Below are positions 895 through 55,507 of a stretch of DNA of 64,000 nucleotides, piece after piece. The stretch lies in the IMG/VR virus record IMGVR_UViG_3300031278_000001. One strand, written 5' to 3'. The stretch's first letter is position 1; the number at the start of each line of letters is the position of its first letter. This DNA is from an uncultured virus (IMG/VR IMGVR_UViG_3300031278_000001) (lineage: Duplodnaviria; Heunggongvirae; Uroviricota; Caudoviricetes). The notes under the pieces are model-generated. The model was not told where the DNA came from, made no database searches, and worked only from the letters and a program-made list of their open reading frames with translations. The position numbers and the translations under genes are program-made.

Positions 895-1827
895 TTAGGT
901 AGTCAGTTTGAATTTGCCACGTCCAACTGCACGACTATTATGCACAATCATACCAAGAAGCTCATAACCAACAAAACCCAATAATAGATTGTCAGGTTGA
1001 TCTGCTGGTATAATTTCGGCGTCTGCTCTCATAGGCATCCATGCAACAAACTCAGGAGCAGCTGTTACATAGAAATAACTCTGATTAGAATCATTTGGCT
1101 CTATAAGATTAGTTACGTAGAAATTAGCACCCCAGAGATTACCTAAATAACCAGTCTGACGAATTTCAATTCTAGCTACTTCATCAATATTAGTTCGATC
1201 CCAACGTCTGATACAGGAAATTCCATCGGGGTTGGTTATAATGGAAGTTCCTAACAAACGCCATTTTTCAACTTCTCTCATAACAAGTGCAACAGTATCA
1301 TCATTCAAAGGTCCTGCAACAGTGTGCTCTGAATTAGTTTGTGTTGCAGCGGTAAAAAGAAGCGAGAAAATATAAAGATCTTCTTTTATTGCTAAAGATT
1401 GTTTTAGTCTTTGTTTTACACGATCAAACACCTTATATTTACGAACCCTTAATTCCCTATAAGGAATCTTAGGATGACTTACTATCTGAAAATCCGGGAC
1501 TATTGTACGAATTGCATTGACAACAGTATAATGAGAAGCACCATCTTTACCAATTAAGGCACCACTCCATTCCTCAATATCGTTATCATAATACATCATA
1601 GCACCATCTGGAATAGTCTCGGTGACAGCTATCCGTCTTCCTATAGGAGCATAATCAAGATGCTTCCTTACCGGATTAGCAAGAGCAGCAGCTATCTTAG
1701 CTAAACCCGTTCTAGTCTGAAGAGCAAGGTTTAAAGCTGCTTCTTTTTTAAGAGAATCTCTTTGAGCCTCTTCAGGACTTTTTCTTACACTAAGTTTATT
1801 AGCAGTTACTTTAATTTCTTTACCCAT
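895..1827 (-). CDS. Major capsid protein (probable HK97 fold)
   Basis: 310 aa; last gene in portal-protease-scaffold-decoration order; LANPVRKHLDY..IGRR..V..IPDGA...YD and GYLGNLWGA motifs resemble large-phage MCPs; GGAGG RBS. Confidence 0.85.
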   Translation of the reverse strand: MGKEIKVTANKLSVRKSPEEAQRDSLKKEAALNLALQTRTGLAKIAAALANPVRKHLDYAPIGRRIAVTETIPDGAMMYYDNDIEEWSGALIGKDGASHYTVVNAIRTIVPDFQIVSHPKIPYRELRVRKYKVFDRVKQRLKQSLAIKEDLYIFSLLFTAATQTNSEHTVAGPLNDDTVALVMREVEKWRLLGTSIITNPDGISCIRRWDRTNIDEVARIEIRQTGYLGNLWGANFYVTNLIEPNDSNQSYFYVTAAPEFVAWMPMRADAEIIPADQPDNLLLGFVGYELLGMIVHNSRAVGRGKFKLTT

Positions 1828-1845: not shown

Positions 1846-2334
1846 TTAAGGCGCTATATAAGTAATGCCTAATTCAATTTTCATTGCAGTAATCCTAGTC
1901 CCATCAGGTCCACCAACCACCGAGAGAACCTTCGCATAACAAACATCATCAGCCGAAAGATTATTAGTCCAAACCAAATAGTCTACACCACCAACAGTCT
2001 GAGTGGTTGGTTTTAAAATATCACCCGAACCATAACTCTGAGCGGTATCCCAAGGAGCAGTCCCATCAGTATAGATAGCAAAATCACTTCCCTCATTGGA
2101 TCCTTCTTCCAATATAACTTCAGCAGGGCCTTTGATTAAATCGCCGGCACCACCTAACTTATCCATTTCCCAGTTATTCATAGCAATTCCTGAAAAATTA
2201 CCTCCACCTGTTATAGTATCAGATAATTCATCATCTATTATATTGAGAGGAGAACCCCCCATATAAAAAATATCAGTAGAAGGATAAGATTTTGAAATTT
2301 TGTATAGATACTTAATATCTCTTTTAAGTGCCAT
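1846..2334 (-). CDS. Probable head decoration/cement protein
   Basis: 162 aa, Gly-rich and beta-like, between scaffold and MCP. Confidence 0.6.
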   Translation of the reverse strand: MALKRDIKYLYKISKSYPSTDIFYMGGSPLNIIDDELSDTITGGGNFSGIAMNNWEMDKLGGAGDLIKGPAEVILEEGSNEGSDFAIYTDGTAPWDTAQSYGSGDILKPTTQTVGGVDYLVWTNNLSADDVCYAKVLSVVGGPDGTRITAMKIELGITYIAP

Positions 2335-2352: not shown

Positions 2353-3513
2353 TTATAAAATAGATTTAAGATTGATAAATTGTCCGTCCCTGACCAAACT
2401 AGCATTTCCGTCAGTGTCTTTAAATTCATCAACTTCTTTCTTTAACATATTCAGTTGTCTAGTATTCATAGATGTCAATGTCTTTTTCTCTTTAAGAGAT
2501 TCCTCAGATCCAATAAGACCTTTCGCTTCCATATTTTCTATCAGTTCAGCTACAATTTCTTTAGTTCCTTTCTTCGCACCGGCTGGGGTTTGTTCCGTTA
2601 AAGCCATCTCAGGTTTCTTTGAAACAGAAGGATCTTTAACATTCTCTTGTGCGTTGACAAGAGCTTCTTGCTTATTATCCCCCCCTTCTTGGGCCTTAAC
2701 AACCTCACCCTTGTAAGGAGGTTTAGCCTTCACATCCGTATCAATTACAGGATTATACTCAGCTTTCTTCTCAATTTTTACTGCTATGTTCTCATTATCG
2801 TTAGCCTCTGTCTTCTCCACCCCGGTGTCTTCACCCTCATCAGTCAATTGAATTTGTTTAGCAAATCCTTTGGAAACTACTCCCCTCTTATTATCTGAAG
2901 CTACATGAGAAATTAAAGCTTTAACTCGTGCTCCCCTCAAGACGTTAATAGCCTCTTCAGGGTCAAGATCATCAATAACATTAAACACAGCAGTAAGTCT
3001 TCTAACCATGCCCTTTGCCCTCTTACAAGCCATTCTCAATCTAGCAGCTTTAGGTTCGGAAATTTTCTTAACCCTAGATACAATATCAGATATCATATCT
3101 AAAGCTTCCTGAGGATTAAGTTTCTTATCGATGTCTTTTTTAATTCTAGATTTCTCTAAATCAACTTTCTCTTCAGGTTTTTTAGTCTTCCTCTTGGTGT
3201 CAATAGTTTCCGGAGTCGGAATTGTGGGTGTTGCTACCTCCCCAGGTTCGGCAAAATTAACATCAACTTTGTCCTTTGAAATTTTTTTCATGTCAAAAGT
3301 AAATTTGTTGACATTTTGATCAAACCAAAAACCAACCGGTTCAAGTTTATATTTTCCACCCAGTCTTTTAGCTAAATTATATAAATATTCTTTAGCTTTT
3401 TTATAGGCTTCCTTTTTTCCACCTTCTTTCTGGAAAAAATTCAAAACTTTTGAACCTGTCTTTTTGTCAAGATCAATTATAATTTTACCTTTTCGTCTCA
3501 TAGGTTTATTCAT
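2353..3513 (-). CDS. Probable scaffolding protein
   Basis: Highly charged, low complexity, between protease and MCP. Confidence 0.55.
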   Translation of the reverse strand: MNKPMRRKGKIIIDLDKKTGSKVLNFFQKEGGKKEAYKKAKEYLYNLAKRLGGKYKLEPVGFWFDQNVNKFTFDMKKISKDKVDVNFAEPGEVATPTIPTPETIDTKRKTKKPEEKVDLEKSRIKKDIDKKLNPQEALDMISDIVSRVKKISEPKAARLRMACKRAKGMVRRLTAVFNVIDDLDPEEAINVLRGARVKALISHVASDNKRGVVSKGFAKQIQLTDEGEDTGVEKTEANDNENIAVKIEKKAEYNPVIDTDVKAKPPYKGEVVKAQEGGDNKQEALVNAQENVKDPSVSKKPEMALTEQTPAGAKKGTKEIVAELIENMEAKGLIGSEESLKEKKTLTSMNTRQLNMLKKEVDEFKDTDGNASLVRDGQFINLKSIL

Positions 3514-3856: not shown

Positions 3857-4987
3857 CTATATTAAATCTTCTTCATCGAAAAGATGAGTTTTTCCCTCAA
3901 TCTTCACCTCATAAAGGCAAGCACTTACTTTTTTATATACTTTTCCAACAGTATCAAGAGAAGTAATATAAACAAGACTGCCTCTCTTAAACCTCTCTTC
4001 TATTTCACTTCTCATCTTCTCTTCCGTCTGGACAATTTCATTATCAAGATCAAAAGCTTCACAAGCAGAACTAAAAGCTTCCGGAAAAGCCATATCTTCT
4101 TGTTTCATCTTAGTAATAAGAAAATCTAAAGCTGACTTATAAACATCAGTATCTTCTTTTACCTCAGATTCATCAAGAGACTGAGAAATTCTTTCAATCT
4201 GTTTTTTCCTATCCACAATATATCTATTTAAAGGAAAAGATGCTAATCTTTCAATCATTTTAGCGTCAGGATCCGCACCTTCTCCACCAGCAAGCCCACC
4301 TAAATTTTGAGGTACAATAATAGAATCTTCAAAAAAAGTAATATCAAAACAACTCTCATAACACAATTTCTCTTCACCAGAAGAAGTTTTGATCATAGTA
4401 CCTTTAAAACCATTTCCCGGTAGTATATGGTCACAATATTCCTCATCATTAGTTGCAATATTGCCACATATAGAACATTGAGTCTCTCCGGCAAAACAAC
4501 CCATACTAGTATCAGTAATCTTTCCATCTTCGATCCAATCAACCAACAATGGAAATCTAGATGAAGCAACCGCCTTTTTATCTATAGCTAGAACATTCTC
4601 AACATACCCACCATCCACAAACACATCTTTATCCCCTTCTCGCCTAAATTGAGGGGGTATATATAAAGAGTCCAAAACCATACCAATTATAATATCGTCT
4701 TGATGATCTACTGACAACCTACAACCAACAAAAGTCATATTTCTTGTCTTCAATTCCTCATTAGGAAACCCATCACCGTTTTCATTAGGTCCATACCATT
4801 CTTCCGCTGAAATAGACCTATTACGGATATAAATATATCTCTCTGGATCAAGCTTAATCGGTTCAATAGCCGCAATTCTTTTACCAAAATTAGAAAAACC
4901 TTTAGTATTTAATGAATCTACTAAATTATTTATATTGTGATGGACTTCTACTATTTTCGTTTTGGTTCCAAATTTCCAAAAACCCAT
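3857..4987 (-). CDS. Probable prohead maturation protease with Cys-rich insert and C-terminal SH3-like module
   Basis: NENGDGFP..EL, VDH, DTSMGC (putative catalytic Ser), CSICGN..YCDH, GADPDA; position in head module. Confidence 0.75.
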   Translation of the reverse strand: MGFWKFGTKTKIVEVHHNINNLVDSLNTKGFSNFGKRIAAIEPIKLDPERYIYIRNRSISAEEWYGPNENGDGFPNEELKTRNMTFVGCRLSVDHQDDIIIGMVLDSLYIPPQFRREGDKDVFVDGGYVENVLAIDKKAVASSRFPLLVDWIEDGKITDTSMGCFAGETQCSICGNIATNDEEYCDHILPGNGFKGTMIKTSSGEEKLCYESCFDITFFEDSIIVPQNLGGLAGGEGADPDAKMIERLASFPLNRYIVDRKKQIERISQSLDESEVKEDTDVYKSALDFLITKMKQEDMAFPEAFSSACEAFDLDNEIVQTEEKMRSEIEERFKRGSLVYITSLDTVGKVYKKVSACLYEVKIEGKTHLFDEEDLI

Positions 4988-5000
4988 GTTTCCTCCTACC

Positions 5001-5525
5001 TTAAATTGCTAATATATTGCCCTTTTGGGCTAATTCTTTTTCCAATTGTTTTTTAATAGCTTCGGTATTAGTGTTCATAACATTTGCCAACTGTCTAACT
5101 ATATCATAAGTTAATAATACTTCAACTCCACCTTTTTGAACAACTTCATCTCCCAAACGAGCTAGAGCTTCATTAAAAATACCCATCTCAGCAGAACCTA
5201 TTTTGAGTTTCTCCCGAATAAACAGCCAAGAATAATTCTTACCCTTTAAAGTGGGAATAAATTTTACAGAAATCTGCTGAAGTACTGTAAGAAATTTACC
5301 ACCTCTAAGAAGAGGAATATTCTCTAAATGTTCAATATTTACATAAACTTTGATAACATTATTTTCCTCATCAATAACATACCGGTTCACAAAGTCTTCA
5401 TAATGAAAACCCATATGTTCAAAGAATTTTTGCACTTCAATTTTAGCCAAATCCTCAACAGTTAAATCTTCTGATGGTTCCTCATAATCTAAATGTTTAC
5501 GCACTGGATTGTTTAATCCCATCAT
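5001..5525 (-). CDS. KH-like protein with an N-terminal MCP-identical peptide
   Basis: GGAGG RBS before ATG 5525; LLRGGKFLTVLQQI resembles the type-II KH GxxG loop; NPVRKHLDY shared with the MCP. Confidence 0.55.
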   Translation of the reverse strand: MMGLNNPVRKHLDYEEPSEDLTVEDLAKIEVQKFFEHMGFHYEDFVNRYVIDEENNVIKVYVNIEHLENIPLLRGGKFLTVLQQISVKFIPTLKGKNYSWLFIREKLKIGSAEMGIFNEALARLGDEVVQKGGVEVLLTYDIVRQLANVMNTNTEAIKKQLEKELAQKGNILAI

Positions 5526-5655
5526 CAGGTTTATCCTCCTTCTTTGGTTCCTCATCATCATATATTTTCTTTAATTCAAAATCATTGGAATTAACTTTCT
5601 TAATAAATCTAAAAACTTGTTTAATCTTTCCTTTTCCTATTTTAACAAATCCCAT
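5497..5655 (-). CDS. 52-aa small protein (MGFVKIGKGKIKQV...)
   Basis: Translated by hand; GGAGG RBS; N-terminus resembles that of the protease (MGFWKFGTKTKIVEV). Confidence 0.5.
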   Translation of the reverse strand: MGFVKIGKGKIKQVFRFIKKVNSNDFELKKIYDDEEPKKEDKPDDGIKQSSA

Positions 5656-5664
5656 CTTATCCTC

Positions 5665-6873
5665 CTATAATTTAATTGGATCCTTTTGATCAAGAAGTTT
5701 ATGAAGATAAATATCTCCACTCTGTTTATCCACTTTCCATCTCTCATCTGAATTAACACTATTCAATGCTTGATCATAAACTTTAGTCTCTTCTATTTCT
5801 GATCCCTTTTCATTGAGAATAATATCAGCAATAAATTCAACATTCTCAGGAATAATTTTCCTTCCATCATAAGTGCAATCTTTATTCTCTTTCATTAAAT
5901 AATTGAGAACTTTAACAATAGCTGCTTTTTTAGAACTCGCCTCTACTTTATAAACATCTTCACCCATTGGAACACTATAACCTTTAATCTTATAATATCC
6001 CTTAATTAGGTCAAAAAGACCATCAACTTGAATATCGCTTTCCTTAATAGAAGCAGTATATCTCATATTAACAGAAAAATCTTTATCCACTATACGAACA
6101 CTTCCAGTAACATTACCCTCATTTTTATTATCTTCTTCCGGAACCACACTATCTATATGAATTTCATCCAATTCCAAGTTCTCATCAATATCAGTCAGAA
6201 TATTAGTTATCTTATCAGATGTCATATCAATGAGCTTTTGATACTGTCTATCCTCTTTAACCGAGTCTGAAAATTCACTGTCTACCGAAATTAAAGGTGA
6301 TATATGAGATACCGGTTCTTTCTCAGTAGTTTTTTCCACAACAATATCAGGGATCTGATCCTTATACTCCTCTTCATCGATCTTTTCTTTATTAAAAGAT
6401 TCAACAATCCTTTTTTCAATAGAGGTGGATAAAAATTTCTCACTTTTCTTATCATATCTCTTATTATCAAGGCTCACTACCGGATATTCATCGAGAATAA
6501 GTTTCGCCAATTTCTCAGAAGCATGTTTAGGATTGAAAGCTTTTGTCTCAAAGAGACTACCACTAACATTAACATTAAATTTACGAAGACCTAATTTCCT
6601 CTCAAAAGAATCCGATTCCAAAATAATTTCACCTTCTTCAACACGATAAGGGACCTGTACATCATTGCCAATAGCAGCTATAGCTATGGTCACAACACCT
6701 TTATTAGAGTCACTTTTATCACTGGTAACAATACGAGTGACTTCTGCTTCGAGATTATATTCACTGTTAAAATAAGAAGCTATATTCTTACTTATAAATC
6801 TTTCTTTTTCCTGCCTTTGATCTCTCTCAAGAACTCGACCAACATCAGATTTAAAATCATCACGAAATATCAT
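5665..6873 (-). CDS. Hypothetical head-module protein
   Basis: 402-aa acidic ORF directly downstream of the portal; RBS present. Confidence 0.6.
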   Translation of the reverse strand: MIFRDDFKSDVGRVLERDQRQEKERFISKNIASYFNSEYNLEAEVTRIVTSDKSDSNKGVVTIAIAAIGNDVQVPYRVEEGEIILESDSFERKLGLRKFNVNVSGSLFETKAFNPKHASEKLAKLILDEYPVVSLDNKRYDKKSEKFLSTSIEKRIVESFNKEKIDEEEYKDQIPDIVVEKTTEKEPVSHISPLISVDSEFSDSVKEDRQYQKLIDMTSDKITNILTDIDENLELDEIHIDSVVPEEDNKNEGNVTGSVRIVDKDFSVNMRYTASIKESDIQVDGLFDLIKGYYKIKGYSVPMGEDVYKVEASSKKAAIVKVLNYLMKENKDCTYDGRKIIPENVEFIADIILNEKGSEIEETKVYDQALNSVNSDERWKVDKQSGDIYLHKLLDQKDPIKL

Positions 6874-6887: not shown

Positions 6888-9800
6888 TTAATTAATATTT
6901 TTTTCCTTTCTTTTAGATTTTTGTTTTTTTACTCTCTCAATTTCTTTTTCCCCTAATTGATGTACTATTTTCTCAATACTCGCCTTTGTTTTTCTACCCA
7001 ATTGTCCATTTGTTATCGAATCCAAAGCCTTACCAGGAATAGTATAATCAACTGTTCCTGATTTTTTAAACTCAGGGGGTATCAACATATTTGTCTCATT
7101 AATATCTGATAATTTCAGATCTATATTAAGACCTTTTTTCTTAACAGCAGTTTTAACCTCCTCAAATACTTTCTTACGCATTTCTTGATATAGCTTATCA
7201 TGAACACTTCCCTGCTCTGCCAATAATTGTTCAACCTCATAATCAAAATCCATATCAAACACATTACACAAAGTCTTACTCGAAATGAGATTTTTATCCC
7301 ATAAATTTATAGCCATATTCTTATAATTAGTATCATCTAAAAGATTCGCCTTATATTGCCAATCAAAATCAGGAATAACAGGAGTCCTATCTTTGTAAGG
7401 TCTCCTAATACCATGATCAAGATCACACTTTTTAATCTCATAAAAATCATGCTCAACAGCTACCGGCAAAAACACATTTTTCTTCCAACTATTTTCCAAC
7501 ATTTGTCTTACTGGAATATATCTGGACAATAAAACTCTAGCGCCAATAGAAGCATTGTTATAAGTAGGACCAACACCAGATGTCAATGCTTTATTCGTAA
7601 ATAATGCCGTGAGAACTCGCTCTTCTATTTGCTGAAGATCCGCAAAAATATTAGGAAACTTACCAGCAGAGCCAACCACTTCATAACTAACTACATTCGG
7701 AACAACAAGTTTAAAATCTGGTTGCTGAGTGGAATCCAAAATTAAATTAGATAAAGATTGTAAATATTCTTGCGTTGGGAAAAAACTATCAGATCCTACC
7801 TTCCAAATTTCTTTAGGCGCAATATGTCTTTCAGCTACCGCCATCTGGGCCTCCCTCAAACGAGTTTCATGAATCAAATCTATCAAAGCACGTAAGACAA
7901 TCGAAGAACCCCTAATTGCATAAGGACTCTTCCTTTGCATAATCATCAGATTGAAAGTATCCAATTCGATAGCCTCAGTTGTTTCAATAGCTTCTACAAT
8001 ATCATGAGGCAATTTACCTTTCATGGATTCGCCTTCTTCACCACTGGTAAATAATTCTTTTATACTCTCTCCAAATCTCAATTTATAAATATAATCACTT
8101 TCATTACCAAGAATAGGAGTACCTATTATATCAACATATTCCGGTTGTAATAAAGCCGAATCACTCCACCAACCTTCTTTATCATCCCAATATAAATAGG
8201 TGAAAACCTCACCTATCAACCACCATTCTCTAAGTTGATCATACATCAACATCAAGGCATTCATTTGATCCAACATATCTTCATAAAATTGATGTATCTT
8301 GGGATCAGTAATACCTTTTATTCCAAAACGAGAAAGAGGTAGTTCAGTATGTAAGCTGATGCAATTAAAACACCCCACACCTTGCACCATATAAGTATGT
8401 TCTTTCTCTACCTCAATATTATAAACTACTCCATCAAAAGTCTCTTTTTCTATAGAAGAAATTTGCCTATATATTCTTTTATGTTCAGTATCAACAAAAA
8501 TATTTCTGCGAATTAAACTCTGAGTTAAACTCTTCTTACAATCACCACCATACACTTTTTCAAATGCCCAACGAGGCATAACCCCCCTCCATCTATTATG
8601 CTTTCCTACGATATTCCAACCATCTTTTCTGTTTCCTTCTGTAGGCACTATTTCTTTTAATGACACAGGAATATGCAACCTCTCTGCTATAAATTTAATT
8701 TGCCAAGCCAAATCTTTAGACACCGTAACATAAACAACTTCTTTTTTTCCAAAATGTCCGTCTCCTTTGAGATAGGATAACAAAAACACCTTTTGAAACT
8801 CAAGAGAAGCATATACAATATCATCACTCAATTTTTTAGTGGATGCCCCTTTCCCCACATGCTTAAGACAAAGACTGGCTAATTCTGTAGAACTGACAGC
8901 CACTTGATTATAATTTTTAGTGTATGATAAACCAAGATTATCCAAGCAAGAATAAATCTCCTCAATATATTCCTCTTCCGAACGATAAAAACACCATTGA
9001 ACTTTATCATTACCTACAACACCACCATTTAAGTCTTTTAAATGTTTATGTAATTTATCTGAATATTCTTTTTCGCTCCATTTTTTCTCAGCTCTTTCAT
9101 GTATTCTCTTACTTTCTTGATCACTGACCAATTTAGAACCAGGAAATCTTTTCAGATATTCTTCTCCCTTAACTCCATGTTTAAAGCAAATATGAGAACC
9201 TAACTGTAAAAACTCTTTACCGCATATTTTGCACTTAACTTTTTCATCTTTCCCATATTTCTTAATAGGACGAGAATATTTTCTATATTTATTAACAAAC
9301 CCTTCAGCGGCATAATATCCCAACAATATTGCATGCTCTATTTTTAAATCGTTCTCTTTAACAAAATCATTCATGGTTGTTATCAGATAATCTTTGGGTT
9401 TAATTTTTTCCACTGTTATCTGTTCAATTTTTAAATCATTAGAAGAACATTCATGATATTTACAACACCCACTTTCACCAAAATAACATCTCTTCGGGCT
9501 TTTTCTAACTTTACCATTCTTATCTTTATAATTTTTAAATTTACATTTAAATTCTTCTTCTCTTATGACAGGAAACTTATGTTCCCCTGTAACTTTAATT
9601 TCCTCCCTTACTCCCATAATTTTAAGTTTGAAAATTTCACCCTCATATTTAGGATTAAAAGTCTTAGTAACTTTCCTAGGTTGAGATAAATGATTTAACA
9701 CTTCTTCCCCAACTTTAATTTCCTCAATATTTTTAACAGTACCGTCAGCCATATTCACAGGTGTTCCTTCCACAAAACAATTCCCCACCAATGGGTGAAA

Positions 9801-10076
9801 AGTATCAAAATAGCGGCAATATTGGTTCAAAGTCGCCATGTCCCACGGGATATAGTAATTAATAAAACTAAGCAAAGGAGAATACCATTGTGGAGCTTCT
9901 GTCTTTAAATCACCGGTACGCCTCATATTAGATCCTGCAGTAACTGCCCTGGAAGTATAACCATTGCCATAACCACCATACCCACCCGCACCTTTGAAAA
10001 CAGGAGCACCTATTCCAGCGGATACTTTTCGTGTACCCACTTCTTCAATAAAATCCCTAGGTCTCTTATCAATCAT
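6888..10076 (-). CDS. Portal protein precursor containing an intein
   Basis: Extein motifs HPLVGN|CISLHTELPLS, REWWLIGEVF, RGSSIV.RAL, GPTYNNAS; about 590 aa after splicing. Confidence 0.85.
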   Translation of the reverse strand: MIDKRPRDFIEEVGTRKVSAGIGAPVFKGAGGYGGYGNGYTSRAVTAGSNMRRTGDLKTEAPQWYSPLLSFINYYIPWDMATLNQYCRYFDTFHPLVGNCFVEGTPVNMADGTVKNIEEIKVGEEVLNHLSQPRKVTKTFNPKYEGEIFKLKIMGVREEIKVTGEHKFPVIREEEFKCKFKNYKDKNGKVRKSPKRCYFGESGCCKYHECSSNDLKIEQITVEKIKPKDYLITTMNDFVKENDLKIEHAILLGYYAAEGFVNKYRKYSRPIKKYGKDEKVKCKICGKEFLQLGSHICFKHGVKGEEYLKRFPGSKLVSDQESKRIHERAEKKWSEKEYSDKLHKHLKDLNGGVVGNDKVQWCFYRSEEEYIEEIYSCLDNLGLSYTKNYNQVAVSSTELASLCLKHVGKGASTKKLSDDIVYASLEFQKVFLLSYLKGDGHFGKKEVVYVTVSKDLAWQIKFIAERLHIPVSLKEIVPTEGNRKDGWNIVGKHNRWRGVMPRWAFEKVYGGDCKKSLTQSLIRRNIFVDTEHKRIYRQISSIEKETFDGVVYNIEVEKEHTYMVQGVGCFNCISLHTELPLSRFGIKGITDPKIHQFYEDMLDQMNALMLMYDQLREWWLIGEVFTYLYWDDKEGWWSDSALLQPEYVDIIGTPILGNESDYIYKLRFGESIKELFTSGEEGESMKGKLPHDIVEAIETTEAIELDTFNLMIMQRKSPYAIRGSSIVLRALIDLIHETRLREAQMAVAERHIAPKEIWKVGSDSFFPTQEYLQSLSNLILDSTQQPDFKLVVPNVVSYEVVGSAGKFPNIFADLQQIEERVLTALFTNKALTSGVGPTYNNASIGARVLLSRYIPVRQMLENSWKKNVFLPVAVEHDFYEIKKCDLDHGIRRPYKDRTPVIPDFDWQYKANLLDDTNYKNMAINLWDKNLISSKTLCNVFDMDFDYEVEQLLAEQGSVHDKLYQEMRKKVFEEVKTAVKKKGLNIDLKLSDINETNMLIPPEFKKSGTVDYTIPGKALDSITNGQLGRKTKASIEKIVHQLGEKEIERVKKQKSKRKEKNIN
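8364..9779 (-). mobile_element. 472-aa intein with LAGLIDADG endonuclease and inserted C2H2 zinc finger
   Basis: Block A CFVEGTPV, block B VTGEHKF, LLGYYAAEG and FLLSYLKGDG, block F VYNIEVEKEHTY, terminal FN followed by Cys+1. Confidence 0.92.
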
Positions 10077-10740: not shown

Positions 10741-12194
10741 GGTTTACAAAACCTACCAAAATTAATAAGTTTTGAAGGACGCCTTTCTTCGCCCAGTTAA
10801 ATTGTTAAACATTTAAACTCCCAGAGACCAGTTCTTTCTGGAAGATTTTACTTGTGGGATTCCCGCTCACATAACAGAGATTATCACAATCTTCTTTTAG
10901 AGATTGCATTCTACTCTGAAGTCCTGTAAGGACAGCTTTCCGATTATCTCTCAATGTTCTCCATAAATACCAGGAATGAATTCGTTTTGTCTCTCTTCCT
11001 ACAAGGTTCAAGACTAATTCCTTCACCAATTTTGATGGGTACTTATAAAGAGATAACTTCTCATTAAACCCTAATCCTCTTCTTGCAATAACATAAGCAG
11101 CAGACTCATGAATAGATAAATTATACATTTGTTGATATTTAAGTTTTCCAATTACAGATGTAAATGCTGGATTGACTTTTTTATACATAATTCCGTTTTC
11201 AATACATTTTCGTTCAAGCAGTGTTAATAATTTCTTCCATACAAAATTGCTTTTAATGCGATTGAATCGTTTTCCCTGATTTTCAAACTCTTTTTTAAAT
11301 TTCAAATTTTCAAATATAATTCCTTTATTATTTTCAAGTGCGAATTTGATTATCTGTTTCACAAGGCATCCTATCTCATAATCTCTTTTATTTGTTGAAG
11401 CAAAAAACATTCTATTATTAACTACAGTAAAAGATTTGACCAAATTCCCATCATTGTTTATATTAGAAATTGCAATCTTGTCGGGATTTATATCTGCACC
11501 AATAACTCCATTTGAAAAATCAATCACCATTTCTGGATTTTCTACTTCATAATCAATAATCACTCTATAATGTTGTTCATCTTTTTTAAGTAATCGAATA
11601 TTATAAGAAATGCCTAAACCAAATAAAGAGAAAAGTCGTTTTTTAAACTTAACAGGGATAAACAAGTTGTATTCTTCAAATTTTCTGTTACCAATTGTTA
11701 CTCTTAAATAAAAATTACCATTCTTATTTAATAATCTAATATTCGGATTGCCTTTTTTGGTTACATCTCCTCTTGCATATATTTGATTATCTCTTTTAGA
11801 TTTCCACTCAGCATTGGATATTTTACCTTTTATAAGAGAATCCCAATTCTTTTTCCCGCCGAAAATTACTTTTTTGCCTTTGACCCTTATATACAACCCT
11901 TGAGCTTGTTTAACTGCATCTGAAATTTGACGAGTATTTAAAGATTTATATTTTATTTTTATTTGGTTTCTAACTTCATTAAAATTTAATTTATCTTTCT
12001 GAAATCTACAAAAAGCAAATCGATAAGCAGAGGACCAATCTGAAACTAATCGATTGAAGCTGCCAAAATTAGAACTATATATTTCACCATGTATTACTTG
12101 TCTCATATATCTAATTCTTTGTTTTCATCTTTGAAGTATTTTTTGGTTATTTTTGATGTGCATTGGTAATTATTTGGCAACTGTTCTTATACCT
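10741..12194 (-). mobile_element. Non-autonomous IS200/IS605/IS607-type element carrying only tnpB
   Basis: tnpB ORF with no tnpA; ttcttatacct at both flanks (10730..10740 and 12184..12194). Confidence 0.7.
10805..12106 (-). CDS. tnpB: TnpB-related RNA-guided nuclease
   Basis: RuvC-I GADINP, RuvC-II IFENL, VNPAFTS, RuvC-III region HESAAYVIARR; very basic protein. Confidence 0.85.
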   Translation of the reverse strand: MRQVIHGEIYSSNFGSFNRLVSDWSSAYRFAFCRFQKDKLNFNEVRNQIKIKYKSLNTRQISDAVKQAQGLYIRVKGKKVIFGGKKNWDSLIKGKISNAEWKSKRDNQIYARGDVTKKGNPNIRLLNKNGNFYLRVTIGNRKFEEYNLFIPVKFKKRLFSLFGLGISYNIRLLKKDEQHYRVIIDYEVENPEMVIDFSNGVIGADINPDKIAISNINNDGNLVKSFTVVNNRMFFASTNKRDYEIGCLVKQIIKFALENNKGIIFENLKFKKEFENQGKRFNRIKSNFVWKKLLTLLERKCIENGIMYKKVNPAFTSVIGKLKYQQMYNLSIHESAAYVIARRGLGFNEKLSLYKYPSKLVKELVLNLVGRETKRIHSWYLWRTLRDNRKAVLTGLQSRMQSLKEDCDNLCYVSGNPTSKIFQKELVSGSLNV

Positions 12195-14534: not shown

Positions 14535-14870
14535 CTAAAAGATTGAATCCTTATCGAACACTTGTATTAAAGCCTTTAAAGAATCGTAAGCGTCTCTCAA
14601 TTCTACCCATCTTAAAATTCCTATATCGAATAGGTCTTTCTTTTGTTGAGTTGATAATTCTATTATTAATCCATTAGCTTGATATAAGGTATCTGGCACT
14701 GTTAAAACATTGCGAAGTCCATAGCTTTTTTGTTCTATTATCGTAAGCTGTTCTTGCATTAATGGCATAATAGAATAATCTTCACTAAATGGAATCACTT
14801 GTATAGGTATCATAAACATTATTAAAACTAACAATCCTGCTAAAATTTTCTTTTTCATTTCACCTCCCAT
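14535..14870 (-). CDS. Hypothetical protein with signal-peptide-like N-terminus
   Basis: MKKKILAGLLVLIMFMIP. Confidence 0.6.
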   Translation of the reverse strand: MGGEMKKKILAGLLVLIMFMIPIQVIPFSEDYSIMPLMQEQLTIIEQKSYGLRNVLTVPDTLYQANGLIIELSTQQKKDLFDIGILRWVELRDAYDSLKALIQVFDKDSIF

Positions 14871-15982
14871 ACGCTATTTAAAAAACATTTCATTGTATCT
14901 CCTCCACTTGTATCTATAAAAGTCCAACCCGTATTAGGAGTTGGCAACGTATCTGTTACTATAACAATAGAATCTCCTCCAAGATGATAACCTTCATGTA
15001 AATCTAATATTTGCGGTTTCAATAATCCATTTACAACAAGGGAGTCTTCAATTATGCAATCTCCGTTTACATCTAATCTTGCATTAGGGGTTACGTCATT
15101 AATACCTATCTTATTGGCACTTATTGTTATACCTGGGATTTGATTTGATGCTGTTCCGAATAATAGTTTTCCTGCTCTATTCCTATATACAATATCCCCT
15201 TCTACAGAACCATATACCCATTGATCGGCAGCTTTTACGTATGCAATCCAAGCCTCTTGTCCCACTCCACCACTTCCAATACCCGAAGGTCCAGTTGTTG
15301 GCAAGTTTATCCAACTTGCTGTATTAGATGCCCAAGATGATATGGCAAGTTGCCCAGTACCTACACCGATTTTAGCTTTAGGAGTTGTGATGGAATCGGT
15401 TGCCTCTTGGTATGCGTGGACGCTGTCTCTTATAACTGTATTAGTGTCGAGATATGCCCCAAGAGTATCCCAAATAATTGAATCATTATCGAACCAATTG
15501 TAATTATCATCCAATAAATTAGTAAGTTCTGCTTCTTTATTAAAAAAATTCCAACCATCCACATCTATACTATCAGTATAATCTAAAGCAAAAGTTAAAA
15601 CATAATCCGAAAGAGTATCCCAATCGGTTGTTCCAGAACTATCCGCATAATAAGCATCTACTGATATACCACTACTATCACTATATCCTACTCTGGGTAT
15701 TTCCAATTTAAAAGTTTCTCCCGAAAATATATAAATTGTATCATTATCATATTTTAGACTATCAATAATATTTTTATATTTTGTTGCATTTATTGAATCG
15801 GCTTCAAGATAATGTGCTAACCATTTGCTGTTACTCACATAAACAGTATCATACATGATAGTATTAATCAACATAATAGGGGGGTCCCACATCTCTAATG
15901 AGTCTTCATAAAACCAATTACTTTTTATAACACCAAAACAAAATAATGGTATTAATAACAACAATAAAAATATTTTCTTCAT
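14855..15982 (-). CDS. Fibre-like protein with signal-peptide-like N-terminus
   Basis: MKKIFLLLLLIPLFCFG; KIGINDVTPNARLDVNG fibre motif. Confidence 0.65.
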   Translation of the reverse strand: MKKIFLLLLLIPLFCFGVIKSNWFYEDSLEMWDPPIMLINTIMYDTVYVSNSKWLAHYLEADSINATKYKNIIDSLKYDNDTIYIFSGETFKLEIPRVGYSDSSGISVDAYYADSSGTTDWDTLSDYVLTFALDYTDSIDVDGWNFFNKEAELTNLLDDNYNWFDNDSIIWDTLGAYLDTNTVIRDSVHAYQEATDSITTPKAKIGVGTGQLAISSWASNTASWINLPTTGPSGIGSGGVGQEAWIAYVKAADQWVYGSVEGDIVYRNRAGKLLFGTASNQIPGITISANKIGINDVTPNARLDVNGDCIIEDSLVVNGLLKPQILDLHEGYHLGGDSIVIVTDTLPTPNTGWTFIDTSGGDTMKCFLNSVWEVK

Positions 15983-42428: not shown

Positions 42429-44282
42429 CTATCTCTCCTCAATACCAAATTCAGTCCCATCCGTTGTCCTGATAATTAATGAGTCAGGTGTGGTTCCAGT
42501 ATAGTATAGGGAATCTATTGTTATGGTAGTACTGATCCCGGGTAAACAAATTTGTCCATATATTTTTGTTTCTTTAAGATTCGTAGCACCTATCATAACC
42601 TGAGAAGTATCATCAGGTTCAGCATTATATCCAAGTGCAGTGGAGCGATTATATTTATAATTTGGCGATAAAGTATGGGTGCCACTTCCGAGAGTAGTAA
42701 AATTATCGGTATACAAAACCAATGAGTCAGCATGGATAATTTTCCATAAATACACCATTGAAGTATCAAAATTAGCAGGTGGAGTACCTGTTGTAGAAAA
42801 TTTAAGGTTCGCAAAATTTCCTACACTACCAAAGTCATGAGCTATAACATATGCTTTATCCTTAGGAGATACATTAATTAAAGCATCTATATTTTTAGCA
42901 TTTCCAGCATCTAAATTAAAATCATTAAAAGATTCATTTCCAATTGCAGTCACATCTTCTGCGGTATTATATGCAAGAGATTTAAACCCTATTGCAGTTG
43001 CACCATCAACTGTGTTTTGCAAAAGAGCAGAATCTCCTAACGCAATTGCTTTATTCCCCGAATTGTACCAAAGACTGTAATTCCCGAAAGCACTTACATT
43101 ATCACCAGTATTATATTGAAGACTATAATCACCGATACTAGAAGCATAATCTCCTGTATTGGTCTGAAGAGCATAGCTTCCGATACTAGTTACATGAGTA
43201 CCGGTATTAGTCTCAAGGGCATAGCTTCCGATACCAGTTACATAACTATTTGCATTATTAAAAAGAGCATAATATCCAAACGCATTGACATATGCTCCTG
43301 TGTTTTTCCATCCAGCATAACTTCCAAAAGCATTTGCTTTCGCTCCTTCATTATCATTTAACGCATAATATCCAAAAGCATTGACATCACTAGCTATATT
43401 GTCATGAGCAGCACTTCCGCCAAAAGCATTAACATAATTCCCACTATTAGAATATCCAGCTTGATAACCAAATCCATTAACATCATTTCCACTAATTTGA
43501 CGAAGCGCTTGATAACCAAATCCATTGTTATTATTACCAGTACTATTCCAGACTGCAAAAAATCCAAAAGCATTAGAATTATTAGAAGTGGAACTATATA
43601 AAGCTTCACAACCAAAAGCACTACATCCCGTTCCCGTATGACTGTCTAATGCCAAAAAACCAACACCACTACAATAATCGCCAGTATGCGCTCTCGCCGC
43701 CTTATATCCAACACCAGTTAAACGTATTCCAGAAGCATCCTTTCCCGCTTGGTATCCGAAGAAAGCACCATACTTTAGATTCTCTCCTGCATTTGTACCC
43801 ATCATCATTGCATAATTGGTATCAATAACTCTCAAAAAAGTATCTCCACCAACCATCATTATATGTCCATCTGCCTCAATATTAATAGGATCCAGAAAAG
43901 AAAATGCTGTCGAATCTTTAGTATCAGCAATATCAAATTCAATTTTCTTCCACGAACTATCAGAAGAACCCCCTCCAACACTATCATTCTTAGGCTCCCA
44001 TGTAGATGTTGCAGTACTCCATTTTGGAACCTGTCCATCTGTTGCACCGATAGAAACATCTGATATATCTGTAAGAATAGTATTGGTATCTAAATAAGCG
44101 CCAAGAGTATCCCAACTAATACTATCTCCGGATCCAACTGGTGCTTTCAATACATAAGGTAATTCCTGATAATGATAATACAAATATAGAGAATCACTTA
44201 CTACATTCATACTATCTATCTTAACCTCTCCCTTAGAGAACCCCAATAAAGACAGTGTTAAAAAAAACAATAATCTTTTCAT
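42429..44282 (-). CDS. Fibre/adhesin-like protein with 14-aa (N)AFGY.A repeats and a signal-peptide-like N-terminus
   Basis: Periodic repeats; DGQVPKW fibre motif; MKRLLFFLTLSLLGFS. Confidence 0.75.
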   Translation of the reverse strand: MKRLLFFLTLSLLGFSKGEVKIDSMNVVSDSLYLYYHYQELPYVLKAPVGSGDSISWDTLGAYLDTNTILTDISDVSIGATDGQVPKWSTATSTWEPKNDSVGGGSSDSSWKKIEFDIADTKDSTAFSFLDPINIEADGHIMMVGGDTFLRVIDTNYAMMMGTNAGENLKYGAFFGYQAGKDASGIRLTGVGYKAARAHTGDYCSGVGFLALDSHTGTGCSAFGCEALYSSTSNNSNAFGFFAVWNSTGNNNNGFGYQALRQISGNDVNGFGYQAGYSNSGNYVNAFGGSAAHDNIASDVNAFGYYALNDNEGAKANAFGSYAGWKNTGAYVNAFGYYALFNNANSYVTGIGSYALETNTGTHVTSIGSYALQTNTGDYASSIGDYSLQYNTGDNVSAFGNYSLWYNSGNKAIALGDSALLQNTVDGATAIGFKSLAYNTAEDVTAIGNESFNDFNLDAGNAKNIDALINVSPKDKAYVIAHDFGSVGNFANLKFSTTGTPPANFDTSMVYLWKIIHADSLVLYTDNFTTLGSGTHTLSPNYKYNRSTALGYNAEPDDTSQVMIGATNLKETKIYGQICLPGISTTITIDSLYYTGTTPDSLIIRTTDGTEFGIEER

Positions 44283-48291: not shown

Positions 48292-48492
48292 CTATGGAAT
48301 GAAGGCATGGGTGGAAAGTAAAACAATATCATCCACCACCAAATCTTGAGCCTTACAAACTCCTTCTAAACTATTTATCAAAACACCATCCCTTGTTATT
48401 TCTTCTTCACTTTTAGAAGTCAAGACCGATATTCGTATATCATAACCCCTTTCATATTGAGATTTCTTTTTAAATTTACTGTATACTTTCAT
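48292..48492 (-). CDS. Small CTS-like leader protein
   Basis: MKVYSKFKKKS. Confidence 0.7.
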   Translation of the reverse strand: MKVYSKFKKKSQYERGYDIRISVLTSKSEEEITRDGVLINSLEGVCKAQDLVVDDIVLLSTHAFIP

Positions 48493-48503
48493 TGATACCC
48501 CCA

Positions 48504-48707
48504 TCAGTGTACTCGTTTTATTTCTTCAACTAATACTAGATCCCCATTCCACTCAAAATCTTCATATTCCCCTTCTTTATTATAAATATCATTGAAAATA
48601 GATTCTGCTTCTTCTAAAAATGTTGCATCACTTATCACTCCTCCATCATCATACACAATATACCTAATTCCAGCACCTTTCTTTTTAAATTTACTATATA
48701 CTTTCAT
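48504..48707 (-). CDS. Small CTS-like leader protein
   Basis: MKVYSKFKKKG after a GGAGG RBS. Confidence 0.7.
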   Translation of the reverse strand: MKVYSKFKKKGAGIRYIVYDDGGVISDATFLEEAESIFNDIYNKEGEYEDFEWNGDLVLVEEIKRVH

Positions 48708-48788
48708 ATTTCCTCCCATATAAATAGATTAAACCCCATGATCGTAACCATAGGGAGTCCGGGAGATATATTACTCTCGGGGATGAAT

Positions 48789-49144: not shown

Positions 49145-49759
49145 CTATTCATCAGTAGATGAAATTTTCAAAGCATCTTCCGGAACCAACAGGGTCAACC
49201 CAGAATCCAATTTCACATAATATACCCAAAAAATAGGTGCAGCTCCCCCTCCAATATTTTCATATTTAATAACTGTTCCGGGTTCATCTTTATCCAAATC
49301 AACATCAAGATATGTATCACCTTCTTCATCCTCTCTATTATATCCACCTTTCTCTACAATAACACTATCCCCTTCAGAGAACAATCCTTTATCACTGCTC
49401 GTTTTCTTGGAAGCGGTTCCAATCATAGAAAGACCAAAATCTTCTAATATTTTATCTCTAACTTTAGTAGTAAATTGAAGCATAACAAGTTCCACCAATT
49501 GATCAGGATCTTTTAATTCATAGTTTTCCGCATATCTATAATGTTTAGTCTCAGACATACCACATTCGTCAACCAAATAATCAAAATCATATAATTTCAA
49601 TAATCCTTTATCATCTAACCCATAAAAATCAATTAATGATTCTTTTAATTCCATAGCCATATCATAATAAGGCAATTCATCATATATCTTCTCCTCTATC
49701 TTCTCCTCAGCTTTCTTTTTAAATGTATCATAATGTTCCAATGTATCATAATGTTTCAT
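49145..49759 (-). CDS. CTS-like leader protein with acidic and SH3-like modules
   Basis: MKHYDTLEHYDTFKKKA; ASKKTS linker. Confidence 0.7.
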   Translation of the reverse strand: MKHYDTLEHYDTFKKKAEEKIEEKIYDELPYYDMAMELKESLIDFYGLDDKGLLKLYDFDYLVDECGMSETKHYRYAENYELKDPDQLVELVMLQFTTKVRDKILEDFGLSMIGTASKKTSSDKGLFSEGDSVIVEKGGYNREDEEGDTYLDVDLDKDEPGTVIKYENIGGGAAPIFWVYYVKLDSGLTLLVPEDALKISSTDE

Positions 49760-49769
49760 CACTTCTCCT

Positions 49770-50147
49770 TTAAATATCAAACCATTCTTGTTCTAAATTT
49801 TCATCATCATTCCATCCTGCCATATCAGTTAATTCACCTAATGTATATCTACTGGTCAATGGCTTAATATAATTCTCCCAAGCTTCTTTAGAAGGTCTCA
49901 CCCATACAGTCACATTCTCCGACTTCATGTCAGTAACTAATAAACCTTCTTCTAATAGATGAGATATATCCTCCCACTCAAACAATCCCCACAATCTAAT
50001 CTCATCCCAGTTCTCTGACCTATGAAATTGAAGTTTTCTTCTGGCCATCTCATCCCAAATTTCATCATCAGTGAAATCTTGTCCTTCTTTTTTAATTGCA
50101 CTATATCTCATAACAGCTTTCTTTTTAAATGTATCATAATGCTTCAT
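49770..50147 (-). CDS. CTS-like leader protein
   Basis: MKHYDTFKKKA..IKKEG. Confidence 0.7.
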   Translation of the reverse strand: MKHYDTFKKKAVMRYSAIKKEGQDFTDDEIWDEMARRKLQFHRSENWDEIRLWGLFEWEDISHLLEEGLLVTDMKSENVTVWVRPSKEAWENYIKPLTSRYTLGELTDMAGWNDDENLEQEWFDI

Positions 50148-55164: not shown

Positions 55165-55233
55165 TCCTCCTTTATTCTATCTATTATGCCCACTCTTTTG
55201 GGTAGTAAATCCCATAAGAACTTTCTCCATTTT

Positions 55234-55449: not shown

Positions 55450-55467
55450 CCCTCCTTTTGTATATAC

Positions 55468-55507
55468 AATATAATCAAATATTATAATTTGTCAAGGGGT
55501 AAATTTA
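55468..55507 (-). promoter_or_regulatory. Conserved early sigma70 promoter
   Basis: TAAATTTACCCC-TTGACA-N16-TATATT. Confidence 0.8.

What the first reader, a model, noticed from the sequence alone, without database searches (positions are those of the whole stretch)
5484..5510. Nine-residue MCP peptide reproduced at the N-terminus of a KH-like protein, with only synonymous differences
Seen: NPVRKHLDY is encoded at 1651..1677 (MCP; AAT CCG GTA AGG AAG CAT CTT GAT TAT) and at 5484..5510 (AAT CCA GTG CGT AAA CAT TTA GAT TAT). There are seven nucleotide differences across five codons, all silent, and Leu is also shared two residues upstream. The rest of the protein is unrelated and has a type-II-KH-like segment. 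Inference: protein-level mimicry of the capsid N-arm, either docking an RNA-binding protein in the procapsid or coupling assembly to translational control.
Basis: partly seen in the sequence, partly recalled or inferred. Interest (0 to 1): 0.7.

Follow-up and report, generated by a model that had tools for sequence, protein, structure and literature searches.

The report
Capsid-arm peptide reused as protein tag
An uncultured phage puts an exact copy of a conserved nine-residue piece of its capsid protein's inner arm at the very start of an unrelated head-module protein, and related phages do the same, so the peptide is probably an address label for head assembly.

Summary
NPVRKHLDY is encoded at 1651-1677 (capsid protein, residues 51-59) and at 5484-5510 (residues 6-14 of a 174-aa protein), both on the minus strand. 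All 7 nucleotide differences are silent.

It is not chance. The capsid copy is the best-conserved stretch of a phage-G-type capsid family. The second copy recurs at the N-terminus of diverged orthologues: 7-9 of 11 tag residues are identical where the rest of the protein is 27-45% identical. A motif scan found three more N-terminal copies on other proteins in other phages of this capsid family. The copies resemble their own phage's capsid motif more than others.

Against this, the closest relative has let the tag decay, and most relatives, including phage G, have none.

Best reading, at about 45%: a portable docking tag that copies the capsid protein's scaffold-facing helix and brings the protein into the prohead. 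No binding was shown, because complex prediction never ran.

The KH-like fold is only a weak topological match. It lacks GXXG and the proteins are mostly acidic, so RNA binding is unsupported.

This scan's earlier notes describe capsid-arm copies on other DNA and read them as protease signals.

The parts
5484..5510 (-). N-terminal tag NPVRKHLDY, residues 6-14 of the 174-aa protein. A hydrophobic residue sits two positions before it (Leu4, 5514-5516).
   Evidence: recurs in orthologues
5001..5525 (-). Gene of the 174-aa tagged protein. Residues 1-22 are a disordered tag plus acidic linker. Residues 23-105 form an alpha-beta-beta-alpha-alpha-beta (type-II-KH-like) domain. The C-terminal helices hold the family's conserved LNEALxRxG...LLxY block.
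5534..5540 (-). AGGAGGA ribosome-binding site, 8 nt before the ATG at 5523-5525
   Evidence: read
1651..1677 (-). MCP copy of the motif, residues 51-59, at the C-terminal end of the predicted N-arm helix H39-59
895..1827 (-). Major capsid protein, 310 aa, HK97 fold, phage-G gp27 family
   Evidence: phrog_2522 E 2e-42; PDB 6wkk E 2e-80; phage G gp27 37.5% identity; model pLDDT 79; VIA Z 14-17 to encapsulins and HK97 proheads
5497..5655 (-). 52-aa ORF with its own AGGAGGA site. It overlaps the first codons of the tagged gene by 29 nt and is conserved in L021.
3857..4987 (-). Head-maturation-protease-like protein, 376 aa, immediately downstream of the tagged gene
   Evidence: phrog_18299 E 1.4e-10, phrog_2774 E 1.7e-25
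2353..3513 (-). Scaffold-like charged protein, 386 aa. Its C-terminal tail type is conserved across the MCP family, which makes it the candidate partner of the motif (inferred).
   Evidence: no family hit
1846..2334 (-). 162-aa ORF in the position of phage G's capsid decoration gene gp26. The assignment is by position only.
6888..10076 (-). Portal protein interrupted by an intein (Hint plus LAGLIDADG)
5665..6873 (-). 402-aa ORF of unknown function between the portal gene and the tagged gene

Best explanation
The nine residues are a short linear docking tag. The full motif is [LIM]-x-[NSE]-P-V-[RK]-x-x-[LM]-D-[YIR]. It copies the C-terminal turns of the capsid protein's prohead-state N-arm helix and sits, disordered, at the extreme N-terminus of a small head-module protein encoded between the portal and the prohead protease. 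By presenting the same face (P, V, L, D and a basic residue), the tagged protein is recognised by whatever recognises the capsid protein's N-arm during head assembly. It would therefore be drawn into, or positioned in, the prohead. The partner is most likely the scaffold, whose C-terminal tail is conserved across this capsid family. Shown: the identity, its conservation, its N-terminal position, its recurrence on other proteins, and a tendency to follow the phage's own capsid variant. Inferred: that it binds anything, which partner it binds, and that the protein ends up in proheads.
For: 1. The MCP motif is the most conserved stretch of the family. P52 is invariant, and L49, V53, L57 and D58 are 90% or more conserved in 37 sequences.
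2. The motif lies in the N-arm helix H39-59 of the model. That helix superposes on the N-terminal helix of encapsulins and on the N-arm of HK97 proheads (VIA Z 14.7-16.6, model range starting at 33-44).
3. In 80alpha the scaffold's C-terminal helix-and-hook binds that helix (PMC5644958, passages). The prohead-state N-arm is stated to bind scaffold in several phages (PMC11922011, introduction passage).
4. The tag recurs in 4 of the 11 representative family proteins examined: P0001, P0078, P0081 and P0083. It is also in P0092 and P0093.
5. Tag identity to P0001 is 8/11, 9/11 and 7/11, while the rest of the protein is 45%, 34% and 27% identical.
6. A PSSM of the MCP motif was run over all ORFs of 91 loci plus the window. 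Outside 103 MCP ORFs it gave five hits scoring 15-31, against a maximum of 12.0 in five shuffles. The hits were the window gene (twice, since L020 is the same contig), L045, L046 and L015.
7. All of these hits lie at or next to protein N-termini. L015 starts MNNPVKMKNDY after a GGAGGG site and sits just upstream of its protease-scaffold gene. L045 and L046 carry the motif at the head of a roughly 1,500-aa DUF5661 protein, and synonymous differences between the two show it is translated.
8. Tags match their own MCP motif better than random MCP variants. Only 7 of 20,000 random draws reach the observed sum for six pairs. Without the discovery pair and its relative, 272 of 20,000 do.
9. Residues 1-22 of the model are coil with pLDDT 51-56, as expected of a motif that folds on binding.
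10. Scaffold and protease-scaffold proteins across the family end in a conserved acidic-Gly-hydrophobic-aromatic tail, complementary in charge to the basic motif.
Against: 1. The closest relative (L021, MCP 92% identical and still NPVRKHLDY) has SPMGEQMDF in the tag position. That is 3/11 identity where the rest of the protein is 72% identical, so the tag decays faster than the protein there.
2. Ten of 19 family proteins seen have no N-terminal extension at all, including those of L025, L002 and L033.
3. Phage G has no second copy in gp14-gp28.
4. Five IMG/VR records of 86-159 kb carry the strict DNA pattern once each, in the MCP only. L093 has none.
5. Only one carrier per genome was found, unlike T4, where several cargo proteins share one targeting sequence.
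6. The pairing of P0078 with MCP P0004 rests only on an equal contig length of 44,378.
7. In L045 and L046 a strong RBS plus ATG lies downstream of the motif, so an untagged form may be the main product.
8. The co-variation sample is six pairs, one of which is the discovery pair.
9. No binding, cleavage or virion data exist.
Confidence: 0.45

Rival explanations
1. The motif is a recognition or cleavage signal of the prohead protease, shared by its substrates. The protease, encoded next door, trims the capsid protein's N-terminus and the tagged protein at or beside the motif.
For: The tagged gene is immediately upstream of the protease-like gene, both in the window and in L015. Shared substrate motifs are usual for prohead proteases (T4, phiKZ and SPN3US; papers seen only as listings). 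Earlier notes of this scan read capsid-arm copies in other phages this way (leads only).
Against: The motif sits inside the conserved N-arm helix, which aligns with structural elements of encapsulins and HK97 proheads. It does not sit at the boundary of a variable propeptide. In P0092 a single Met precedes the motif, so a cut before it would remove nothing. The residues after the motif are not conserved among carriers. The PDB chain of phage G gp27 has 280 of the gene's 282 residues, which gives no hint of a removed propeptide, although SEQRES does not show what was modelled.
Confidence: 0.17
2. N-arm exchange. The tag occupies the groove on the capsid protein's own body where its N-arm helix normally lies, for example at positions where arms are displaced such as around the portal. 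This would tether the protein to the inner capsid wall rather than to the scaffold.
For: The N-arm helix is predicted with pLDDT about 82-85, in the encapsulin-like position along the P-domain. The conserved face of the motif is hydrophobic (V, L, Y), as for a helix packed in a groove. The gene lies near the portal gene.
Against: It requires displacing the capsid protein's own arm. Co-variation at the variable, probably exposed positions (KH with KH, QK with QK) fits a third, co-evolving partner better. It was not tested.
Confidence: 0.15
3. No function. The match is chance or a relic, and the N-terminal region is a neutral disordered tail.
For: Across a very large scan some exact 9-mer matches are expected by chance (my estimate is about 0.002 per window). 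The closest relative has lost the match, and most family members lack any extension.
Against: The tag is much better conserved than the rest of the protein in three diverged orthologues. Independent N-terminal copies occur in L015, L045 and L046 with scores above all shuffles. At DNA level the two window copies differ as much as codon bias allows, so this is not a recent duplication.
Confidence: 0.08
4. One reading: a KH-type RNA-binding protein that couples capsid assembly to translational control, docked through the capsid-like peptide.
For: The domain topology is alpha-beta-beta-alpha-alpha-beta. The best structural neighbours are RbfA, KhpB/Jag, RimP and S3.
Against: Z 7-8 is in the range the tool calls common. 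No Pfam KH family is hit. G-x-x-G is absent in 13 of 13 members, and the GG[KR] turn is present in only 6 of 13. pI is 4.9-5.8 in 8 of 10 members, and the core domain has net charge 0. The same fold serves protein-protein contacts in DnaA domain I and the Pol III tau domain, both of which appear among the Foldseek rows.
Confidence: 0.05
5. A decoy for a host defence that senses the capsid protein. The free copy of the conserved capsid peptide would titrate a sensor.
For: Only that the copied stretch is the most conserved and therefore most 'sensable' part of the MCP. This is my own speculation from recalled examples of capsid-sensing defences.
Against: The gene sits in the middle of the head-assembly operon. 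Other carriers are large structural-module proteins. No defence context was seen.
Confidence: 0.03

Closest known systems
T4 capsid targeting sequence (CTS) of internal proteins
   Same: A short N-terminal peptide on otherwise unrelated proteins that directs them into the prohead through the scaffolding core (PMC3012670, passages). The gene position between portal and protease resembles that of the T4 prohead-core genes 67 and 68 (gene order recalled, not from a call).
   Different: The CTS is not known to copy the capsid protein's own sequence. It is shared by many cargo proteins of one phage, whereas only one carrier per genome was seen here. The CTS is removed by gp21, and cleavage here is untested.
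80alpha scaffold / SaPI1 CpmB competition for the capsid protein N-arm
   Same: The N-arm helix lying inside the P-domain is the docking site for a C-terminal helix-and-hook. A second protein exploits the same interface by sequence likeness (PMC5644958, passages).
   Different: There the mimic copies the scaffold's tail. Here the copy is of the capsid side of the presumed interface.
Encapsulin cargo-loading peptides
   Same: A short terminal peptide loads cargo into an HK97-fold shell at a site built with the shell protein's N-terminal helix. The window's MCP model superposes best on encapsulins, including the EncA-targeting-peptide complex 7s2t (Z 15.9, rmsd 3.8 over 241 residues).
   Different: Cargo peptides are usually C-terminal and do not resemble the shell protein (recalled). 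Here the tag equals the shell protein's own helix.
Capsid-arm copies noted earlier in this scan (e1-5874138, e1-5668276)
   Same: A copy of the capsid protein's N-arm peptide on a scaffold-like protein or behind the protease domain in other uncultured phages.
   Different: The DNA, capsid families and carriers differ, and those notes read the copy as the protease's cut signal. They are unchecked AI notes, and sequence look-ups with this window's proteins found no overlap.
Type II KH fold proteins (RbfA, KhpB/Jag, ribosomal protein S3)
   Same: The alpha-beta-beta-alpha-alpha-beta topology of residues 23-105.
   Different: No G-x-x-G, no sequence-family hit, and mostly acidic. Function cannot be transferred.

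Membership tests
HK97-fold major capsid protein, phage G gp27 type (the 310-aa protein) | Sequence match to a solved or curated MCP of that type | tested here: met
   PDB 6wkk gp27 E 2e-80 over 280 positions; phrog_2522 major head protein E 2e-42; phage G gp27 37.5% identity over 91% of the query
HK97-fold major capsid protein, phage G gp27 type (the 310-aa protein) | HK97 fold with an N-arm | tested here: met
   Model pLDDT 79, pTM 0.73; VIA Z 14.4-16.6 to encapsulins and to HK97, HRP29, SPO1 and other capsids
Type II KH domain (the 174-aa protein) | alpha-beta-beta-alpha-alpha-beta topology | tested here: met
   Model elements H23-37, E46-52, E57-62, H65-69, H71-88 and E99-104, with pLDDT 81-91 in that part. 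Neighbours 3gku Z 7.9, RbfA Z 7.1-7.4 and KhpB Z 6.6 are middling scores.
Type II KH domain (the 174-aa protein) | G-x-x-G loop between the two central helices | tested here: not met
   Absent in 13 of 13 aligned members. A GG[KR] turn is present in 6 of 13.
Type II KH domain (the 174-aa protein) | Match to a curated KH sequence family | tested here: not met
   No Pfam KH family at E up to 0.01; the only hit is RelB-like at 16.6 bits, below its cut-off of 27. No PHROG hit, and no PDB sequence hit of note.
Type II KH domain (the 174-aa protein) | Nucleic-acid binding | not testable with these tools
   The only indirect evidence is pI 4.9-5.8 in 8 of 10 members.
Capsid/prohead targeting peptide (T4 CTS-like) | Short peptide at the extreme N-terminus of the carrier | tested here: met
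   The motif starts at residue 2-14 in P0001, P0078, P0092, P0093, P0081, P0083 and the L015 protein. In L045 and L046 it lies within about 25 residues of the candidate starts.
Capsid/prohead targeting peptide (T4 CTS-like) | Shared by unrelated carrier proteins | tested here: inconclusive
   Three carrier types were found across phages: the KH-like family, the L015 helical protein (which has only a weak C-terminal likeness, hhalign probability 16%) and a roughly 1,500-aa DUF5661 protein. Never more than one carrier was found in one genome.
Capsid/prohead targeting peptide (T4 CTS-like) | Binds the scaffold core or capsid interior and is found in proheads | not testable with these tools
   Complex prediction never ran. 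No proteomics exist for this uncultured phage.
Prohead protease substrate site | Cleavage at the motif, and position at a propeptide boundary | not testable with these tools
   The only positional argument is that the motif lies inside the conserved N-arm helix.

The most novel reading that the evidence does not exclude
A clade of uncultured phage-G-like phages uses a copy of the capsid protein's own scaffold-binding helix as a portable N-terminal address label. A cargo protein poses as a capsid subunit to the scaffold and is built into the prohead. The label has been moved onto at least three kinds of protein: a KH-fold protein, a helical 159-aa protein and a roughly 1,500-aa DUF5661 protein. 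It is kept in step with each phage's own capsid variant.
Probability: 0.3. Interest if true: 0.75.

Novelty: new variant of a known kind. Interest (0 to 1): 0.6.

Why it matters
Targeting peptides that load proteins into phage heads are known from few systems, chiefly T4. How jumbo-type and uncultured phages choose what goes into the prohead is largely open. A tag that is simply the capsid protein's own docking helix would be a very economical rule: anything that looks like a capsid arm gets built in. It would identify the scaffold-binding element of a large, uncharacterised capsid family from sequence alone. It would also offer a nine-residue handle for loading foreign proteins into such capsids. 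The idea is directly testable with tag-reporter fusions. If instead the peptide is the protease's signal, it would define the substrate motif of an uncharacterised prohead protease family.

Tried and rejected
1. Complex prediction. I planned a job pairing the scaffold C-terminal domain (A6, residues 45-120) with the tagged protein (A4, residues 1-110). Nothing was folded, so no verdict exists.

2. Close relatives in IMG/VR. Searches with the 174-aa protein, the MCP, alignment A5, P0078 and P0081 found none.

3. GTDB genomes. The scan gave one locus, L093 from a Pacebacteria MAG contig, with no tag and no family member.

4. IMG/VR scan for the DNA pattern of PVRKHLDY. It gave 3 loci. One is an MCP (L101, on the same contig as L002). 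Two are related contigs where the match is out of frame inside a long ORF, so they are chance hits.

5. L005-L007 large protein. An EPVRRGLSY stretch precedes the likely GTG start, so it was not counted as a tag.

6. Family, structure and atlas searches for the 174-aa protein. Pfam, PHROGs, PDB sequence search, BFVD Foldseek and the ESM Atlas gave nothing nameable.

7. Phage collection. tblastn with the 174-aa protein gave only one hit, at E 0.4.

8. jackhmmer from the L015 protein reached L025's family member only in later rounds. hhalign gave probability 16%, so homology of the L015 carrier to the 174-aa family is left open.

9. The phage G capsid paper (PMC7316594) is not held. What it says about N-terminal processing of gp27 could bear on the protease rival.

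10. Literature searches for a described capsid-arm mimic tag and for DUF5661 (0 papers) listed no paper that describes one. Only listings and the passages named above were read.

Full report
**Observation.** All genes in the window read on the minus strand.
- The 310-aa ORF 895..1827(-) contains ...GLAKIAAALANPVRKHLDYAPIGRR..., with the peptide at 1651..1677.
- The ORF 5001..5525(-) begins MMGLNNPVRKHLDYEEPSEDL, with the peptide at 5484..5510.
- The seven nucleotide differences are all synonymous. The four identical codons are NAT codons, which a 33% G+C genome prefers, so the two copies are as different at DNA level as the shared peptide allows. This rules out a recent duplication or conversion.
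- An AGGAGGA site lies 8 nt before the ATG. The gene call in the public protein collection starts at the same Met (P0001).
- In the window the 9-mer is one of 11 shared between different ORFs.

**Context.** In transcription order the module is:
- a portal gene interrupted by an intein, 6888..10076;
- a 402-aa ORF;
- a 52-aa ORF with its own strong ribosome-binding site;
- the 174-aa gene;
- a head-maturation-protease-like gene, 3857..4987 (phrog_18299);
- a charged 386-aa scaffold-like gene;
- a 162-aa ORF;
- the MCP (phrog_2522);
- a 260-aa ORF.

The MCP belongs to the family of phage G gp27 (PDB 6wkk E 2e-80; 37.5% identity). Phage G has the same order: portal, several small genes, protease gp19..., decoration gp26, MCP gp27 (functions from passages of the preprint 10.1101/2024.12.16.628780).

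**The capsid copy.**
- In an alignment of 37 family members the consensus is ANPVRKxLDY. P52 is invariant, and L49, V53, L57 and D58 are 90% or more conserved. This is the best-conserved short stretch of the protein.
- The AlphaFold model (pLDDT 79) puts the motif at the end of the second N-arm helix, H39-59.
- The model superposes best on encapsulin shell proteins and phage proheads, from about residue 33-44 onward (Z 14.7-16.6). The helix therefore corresponds to the N-terminal helix that lies on the inner side of the P-domain.
- In 80alpha proheads the scaffold's C-terminal helix-and-hook binds just there (PMC5644958, passages).
- A phi29 paper states that the prohead-state N-arm binds scaffold in several phages (PMC11922011, passage).

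**The second protein.**
- The family is rare. An exhaustive profile search of 1.84 billion representatives gave 12 hits at E up to 0.001. One of them, P0086 (1,929 aa, 15 stretches), I did not examine.
- The model (13 sequences, pLDDT 67) has three parts: a disordered N-terminus (1-22), a confident alpha-beta-beta-alpha-alpha-beta domain (23-105), and poorly modelled C-terminal helices.
- The nearest solved folds are type-II-KH-like: 3gku, RbfA, KhpB, RimP and S3. Z is only 7-8 and Foldseek E is 0.02 or worse.
- There is no G-x-x-G in any of 13 members, no KH sequence family, and a mostly acidic composition.
- The fold label is fair as topology. RNA binding is not supported.

**Is the peptide conserved?** Yes, but patchily.
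- Among the 11 representatives examined, four carry it near residue 1: P0001; P0078 (MMSPVRKHLDYGE); P0083 (..DDLKNPVRKHLDINE); P0081 (MKKNQKLNNPVKIQLDRDE). Cluster members P0092 and P0093 carry it too.
- Tag identity to P0001 is 8/11, 9/11 and 7/11. The rest of these proteins is 45%, 34% and 27% identical.
- Against this, the closest relative (L021/P0002, whose MCP is 92% identical and keeps NPVRKHLDY) has LKSPMGEQMDFDD aligned to LNNPVRKHLDYEE. That is 3/11 identity where the rest is 72% identical.
- Ten of the 19 family proteins seen have no N-terminal extension, including those of L025, L002 and L033.

**Other carriers.** I built a position matrix from 38 distinct MCP motif windows, taken from 70 of 103 MCP ORFs. 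I scanned every stop-to-stop ORF of 40 aa or more in 91 fetched loci plus the window.
- Outside the MCPs, five hits scored 15 or more, against a maximum of 12.0 in five shuffles. They were the window gene and its duplicate L020 (31.0), L045 (25.2), L015 (16.9) and L046 (15.1).
- The L015 protein starts MNNPVKMKNDY right after a GGAGGG site. It lies immediately upstream of that phage's protease-scaffold fusion gene, the same position as in the window. It is helical and shares at most a weak C-terminal likeness with the 174-aa family.
- L045 and L046 carry VSPVKQKMDYSG and VSPVKVNLDYIG at the head of a homologous large protein (1,513 aa in L046, with a DUF5661 domain).
- That stretch differs between the two phages mostly by synonymous changes, so it is translated. 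It lies upstream of a strong RBS plus ATG, with weaker candidate starts before it. A tagged and an untagged form are both possible.
- DUF5661 also occurs as an insert in family member P0085.

**Negative results of the survey.**
- Five IMG/VR records of 86-159 kb have the strict DNA pattern only in the MCP.
- Phage G has no second copy in gp14-gp28.
- L093 has none.
- An IMG/VR-wide scan for PVRKHLDY found one MCP and one out-of-frame chance match on two related contigs.

**Co-variation.** Tag and own-MCP motifs compare as follows.

| Pair | Tag | Own MCP motif | Identical |
|---|---|---|---|
| window | NPVRKHLDY | NPVRKHLDY | 9/9 |
| P0078 with P0004 | SPVRKHLDY | NPVRKHLDY | 8/9 |
| L045 | SPVKQKMDY | SPVRQKLDY | 7/9 |
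| L046 | SPVKVNLDY | SPVRIRLDY | 6/9 |
| L015 | NPVKMKNDY | NPVRFKLDY | 6/9 |
| L021 | SPMGEQMDF | NPVRKHLDY | 2/9 |

- The P0078-P0004 pairing is inferred only from the equal contig length of 44,378.
- The L045 match is the best of 37 MCP variants.
- Random draws from the 37 distinct MCP variants reach the observed sum in 7 of 20,000 trials, and in 3 of 20,000 at the variable positions.
- Leaving out the discovery pair and its relative, 272 of 20,000 reach it.
- Leaving out L021 as well, which is the unfavourable case, 81 of 20,000 reach it.
- The sample is small and the phages are related, so this is suggestive and no more.

**Mechanism.**
- Shown: a conserved, N-terminal, disordered copy of the capsid N-arm's last two helical turns. 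It has the same invariant positions (hydrophobic at -2, P, V, basic, L/M, D) as the capsid motif. It occurs on proteins of the head module, in several lineages.
- Inferred: the tag is recognised by the partner of the capsid N-arm in the prohead, and this brings or fixes the carrier there.
- I favour the scaffold as partner for three reasons. N-arm helices are the scaffold site in other HK97-fold proheads. Scaffolds and protease-scaffold fusions of this family end in a conserved acidic-Gly-hydrophobic-aromatic tail, complementary to the basic motif. Agreement at exposed variable positions suggests a co-evolving third party.
- The decayed L021 tag has lost all three basic residues. Under this reading its carrier no longer uses the route.
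- Rivals are a protease signal, exchange with the capsid protein's own arm, no function, an RNA-binding regulator and a defence decoy. They are weighed in their own sections.
- The one job that could have shifted these odds, complex prediction, was never available.

**Comparison and novelty.**
- The closest known systems are the T4 capsid targeting sequence (PMC3012670), the 80alpha/SaPI1 competition at the N-arm and encapsulin cargo peptides (for the structural parallel).
- None of these, as far as my searches listed, uses a copy of the shell protein's own helix.
- This scan's earlier notes report capsid-arm copies on scaffold-like and protease proteins in other phages and read them as cut signals. 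The theme has thus been met before on other DNA. Sequence look-ups found no overlap with this window.
- I class the finding as a new variant of a known kind, with a real observation and an unproven mechanism.

Noticed in passing
window 6888-10076 (-): The portal gene is interrupted by an intein (Hint/intein splicing plus LAGLIDADG domains at residues about 100-500). The portal PHROG matches only residues 560-945.
   Followed up: partly
window 10805-12106 (-): A 433-aa TnpB/Cas12f-like transposase-type ORF sits next to the head module (weak Pfam Cas12f1-like TNB hit and a PHROG transposase hit).
   Followed up: no
window 14855-15982 (-) and 42429-44282 (-): A second shared peptide: the block DSI-WDTLGAYLDTNT (12 identical residues in a row) joins two proteins of 375 and 617 aa that are otherwise barely alike (BLASTP E 4e-4). 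It may be another shared docking motif, perhaps of tail or fibre proteins.
   Followed up: partly
window 48295-48728, 49148-50162, 54895-55491 (-): Adjacent small ORFs share N-terminal or internal 9-10-mers (MKVYSKFKKK, HYDTFKKKA, GYTKRKFDVE), which suggests tandem small paralogues.
   Followed up: no
window 2353-3513 (-); L001-L088 scaffold or protease-scaffold ORFs: Across the MCP family, the protein encoded before the decoration and MCP genes ends in a conserved tail of the type acidic-Gly-x-hydrophobic-aromatic/aliphatic-acidic (for example ...DGQFINLKSIL, ...LDSGTMFDE, ...LEDGTFFG). This is a candidate capsid-binding tail.
   Followed up: partly
P0085 residues 96-149; L046 15208-19746 (+), residues 1066-1126: DUF5661 occurs both as an insert in one member of the 174-aa family and inside the roughly 1,500-aa tagged protein of L046. 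No paper in the library mentions this domain.
   Followed up: partly
window 5497-5655 (-): A 52-aa ORF with a perfect AGGAGGA site overlaps the start of the tagged gene by 29 nt. It is conserved in L021. Its function is unknown (weak phrog_5727 hit, E 0.008).
   Followed up: partly
L093 (MAG contig labelled Candidatus Pacebacteria): The only GTDB-genome hit for this MCP family is a 15-kb, 29% G+C contig binned with a CPR bacterium. This is a possible host hint for part of the family.
   Followed up: no
window 58030-58860 (-): A free-standing homing endonuclease ORF with HNH and LAGLIDADG PHROG matches. It adds to the intein as a sign of many selfish elements in this phage.
   Followed up: no
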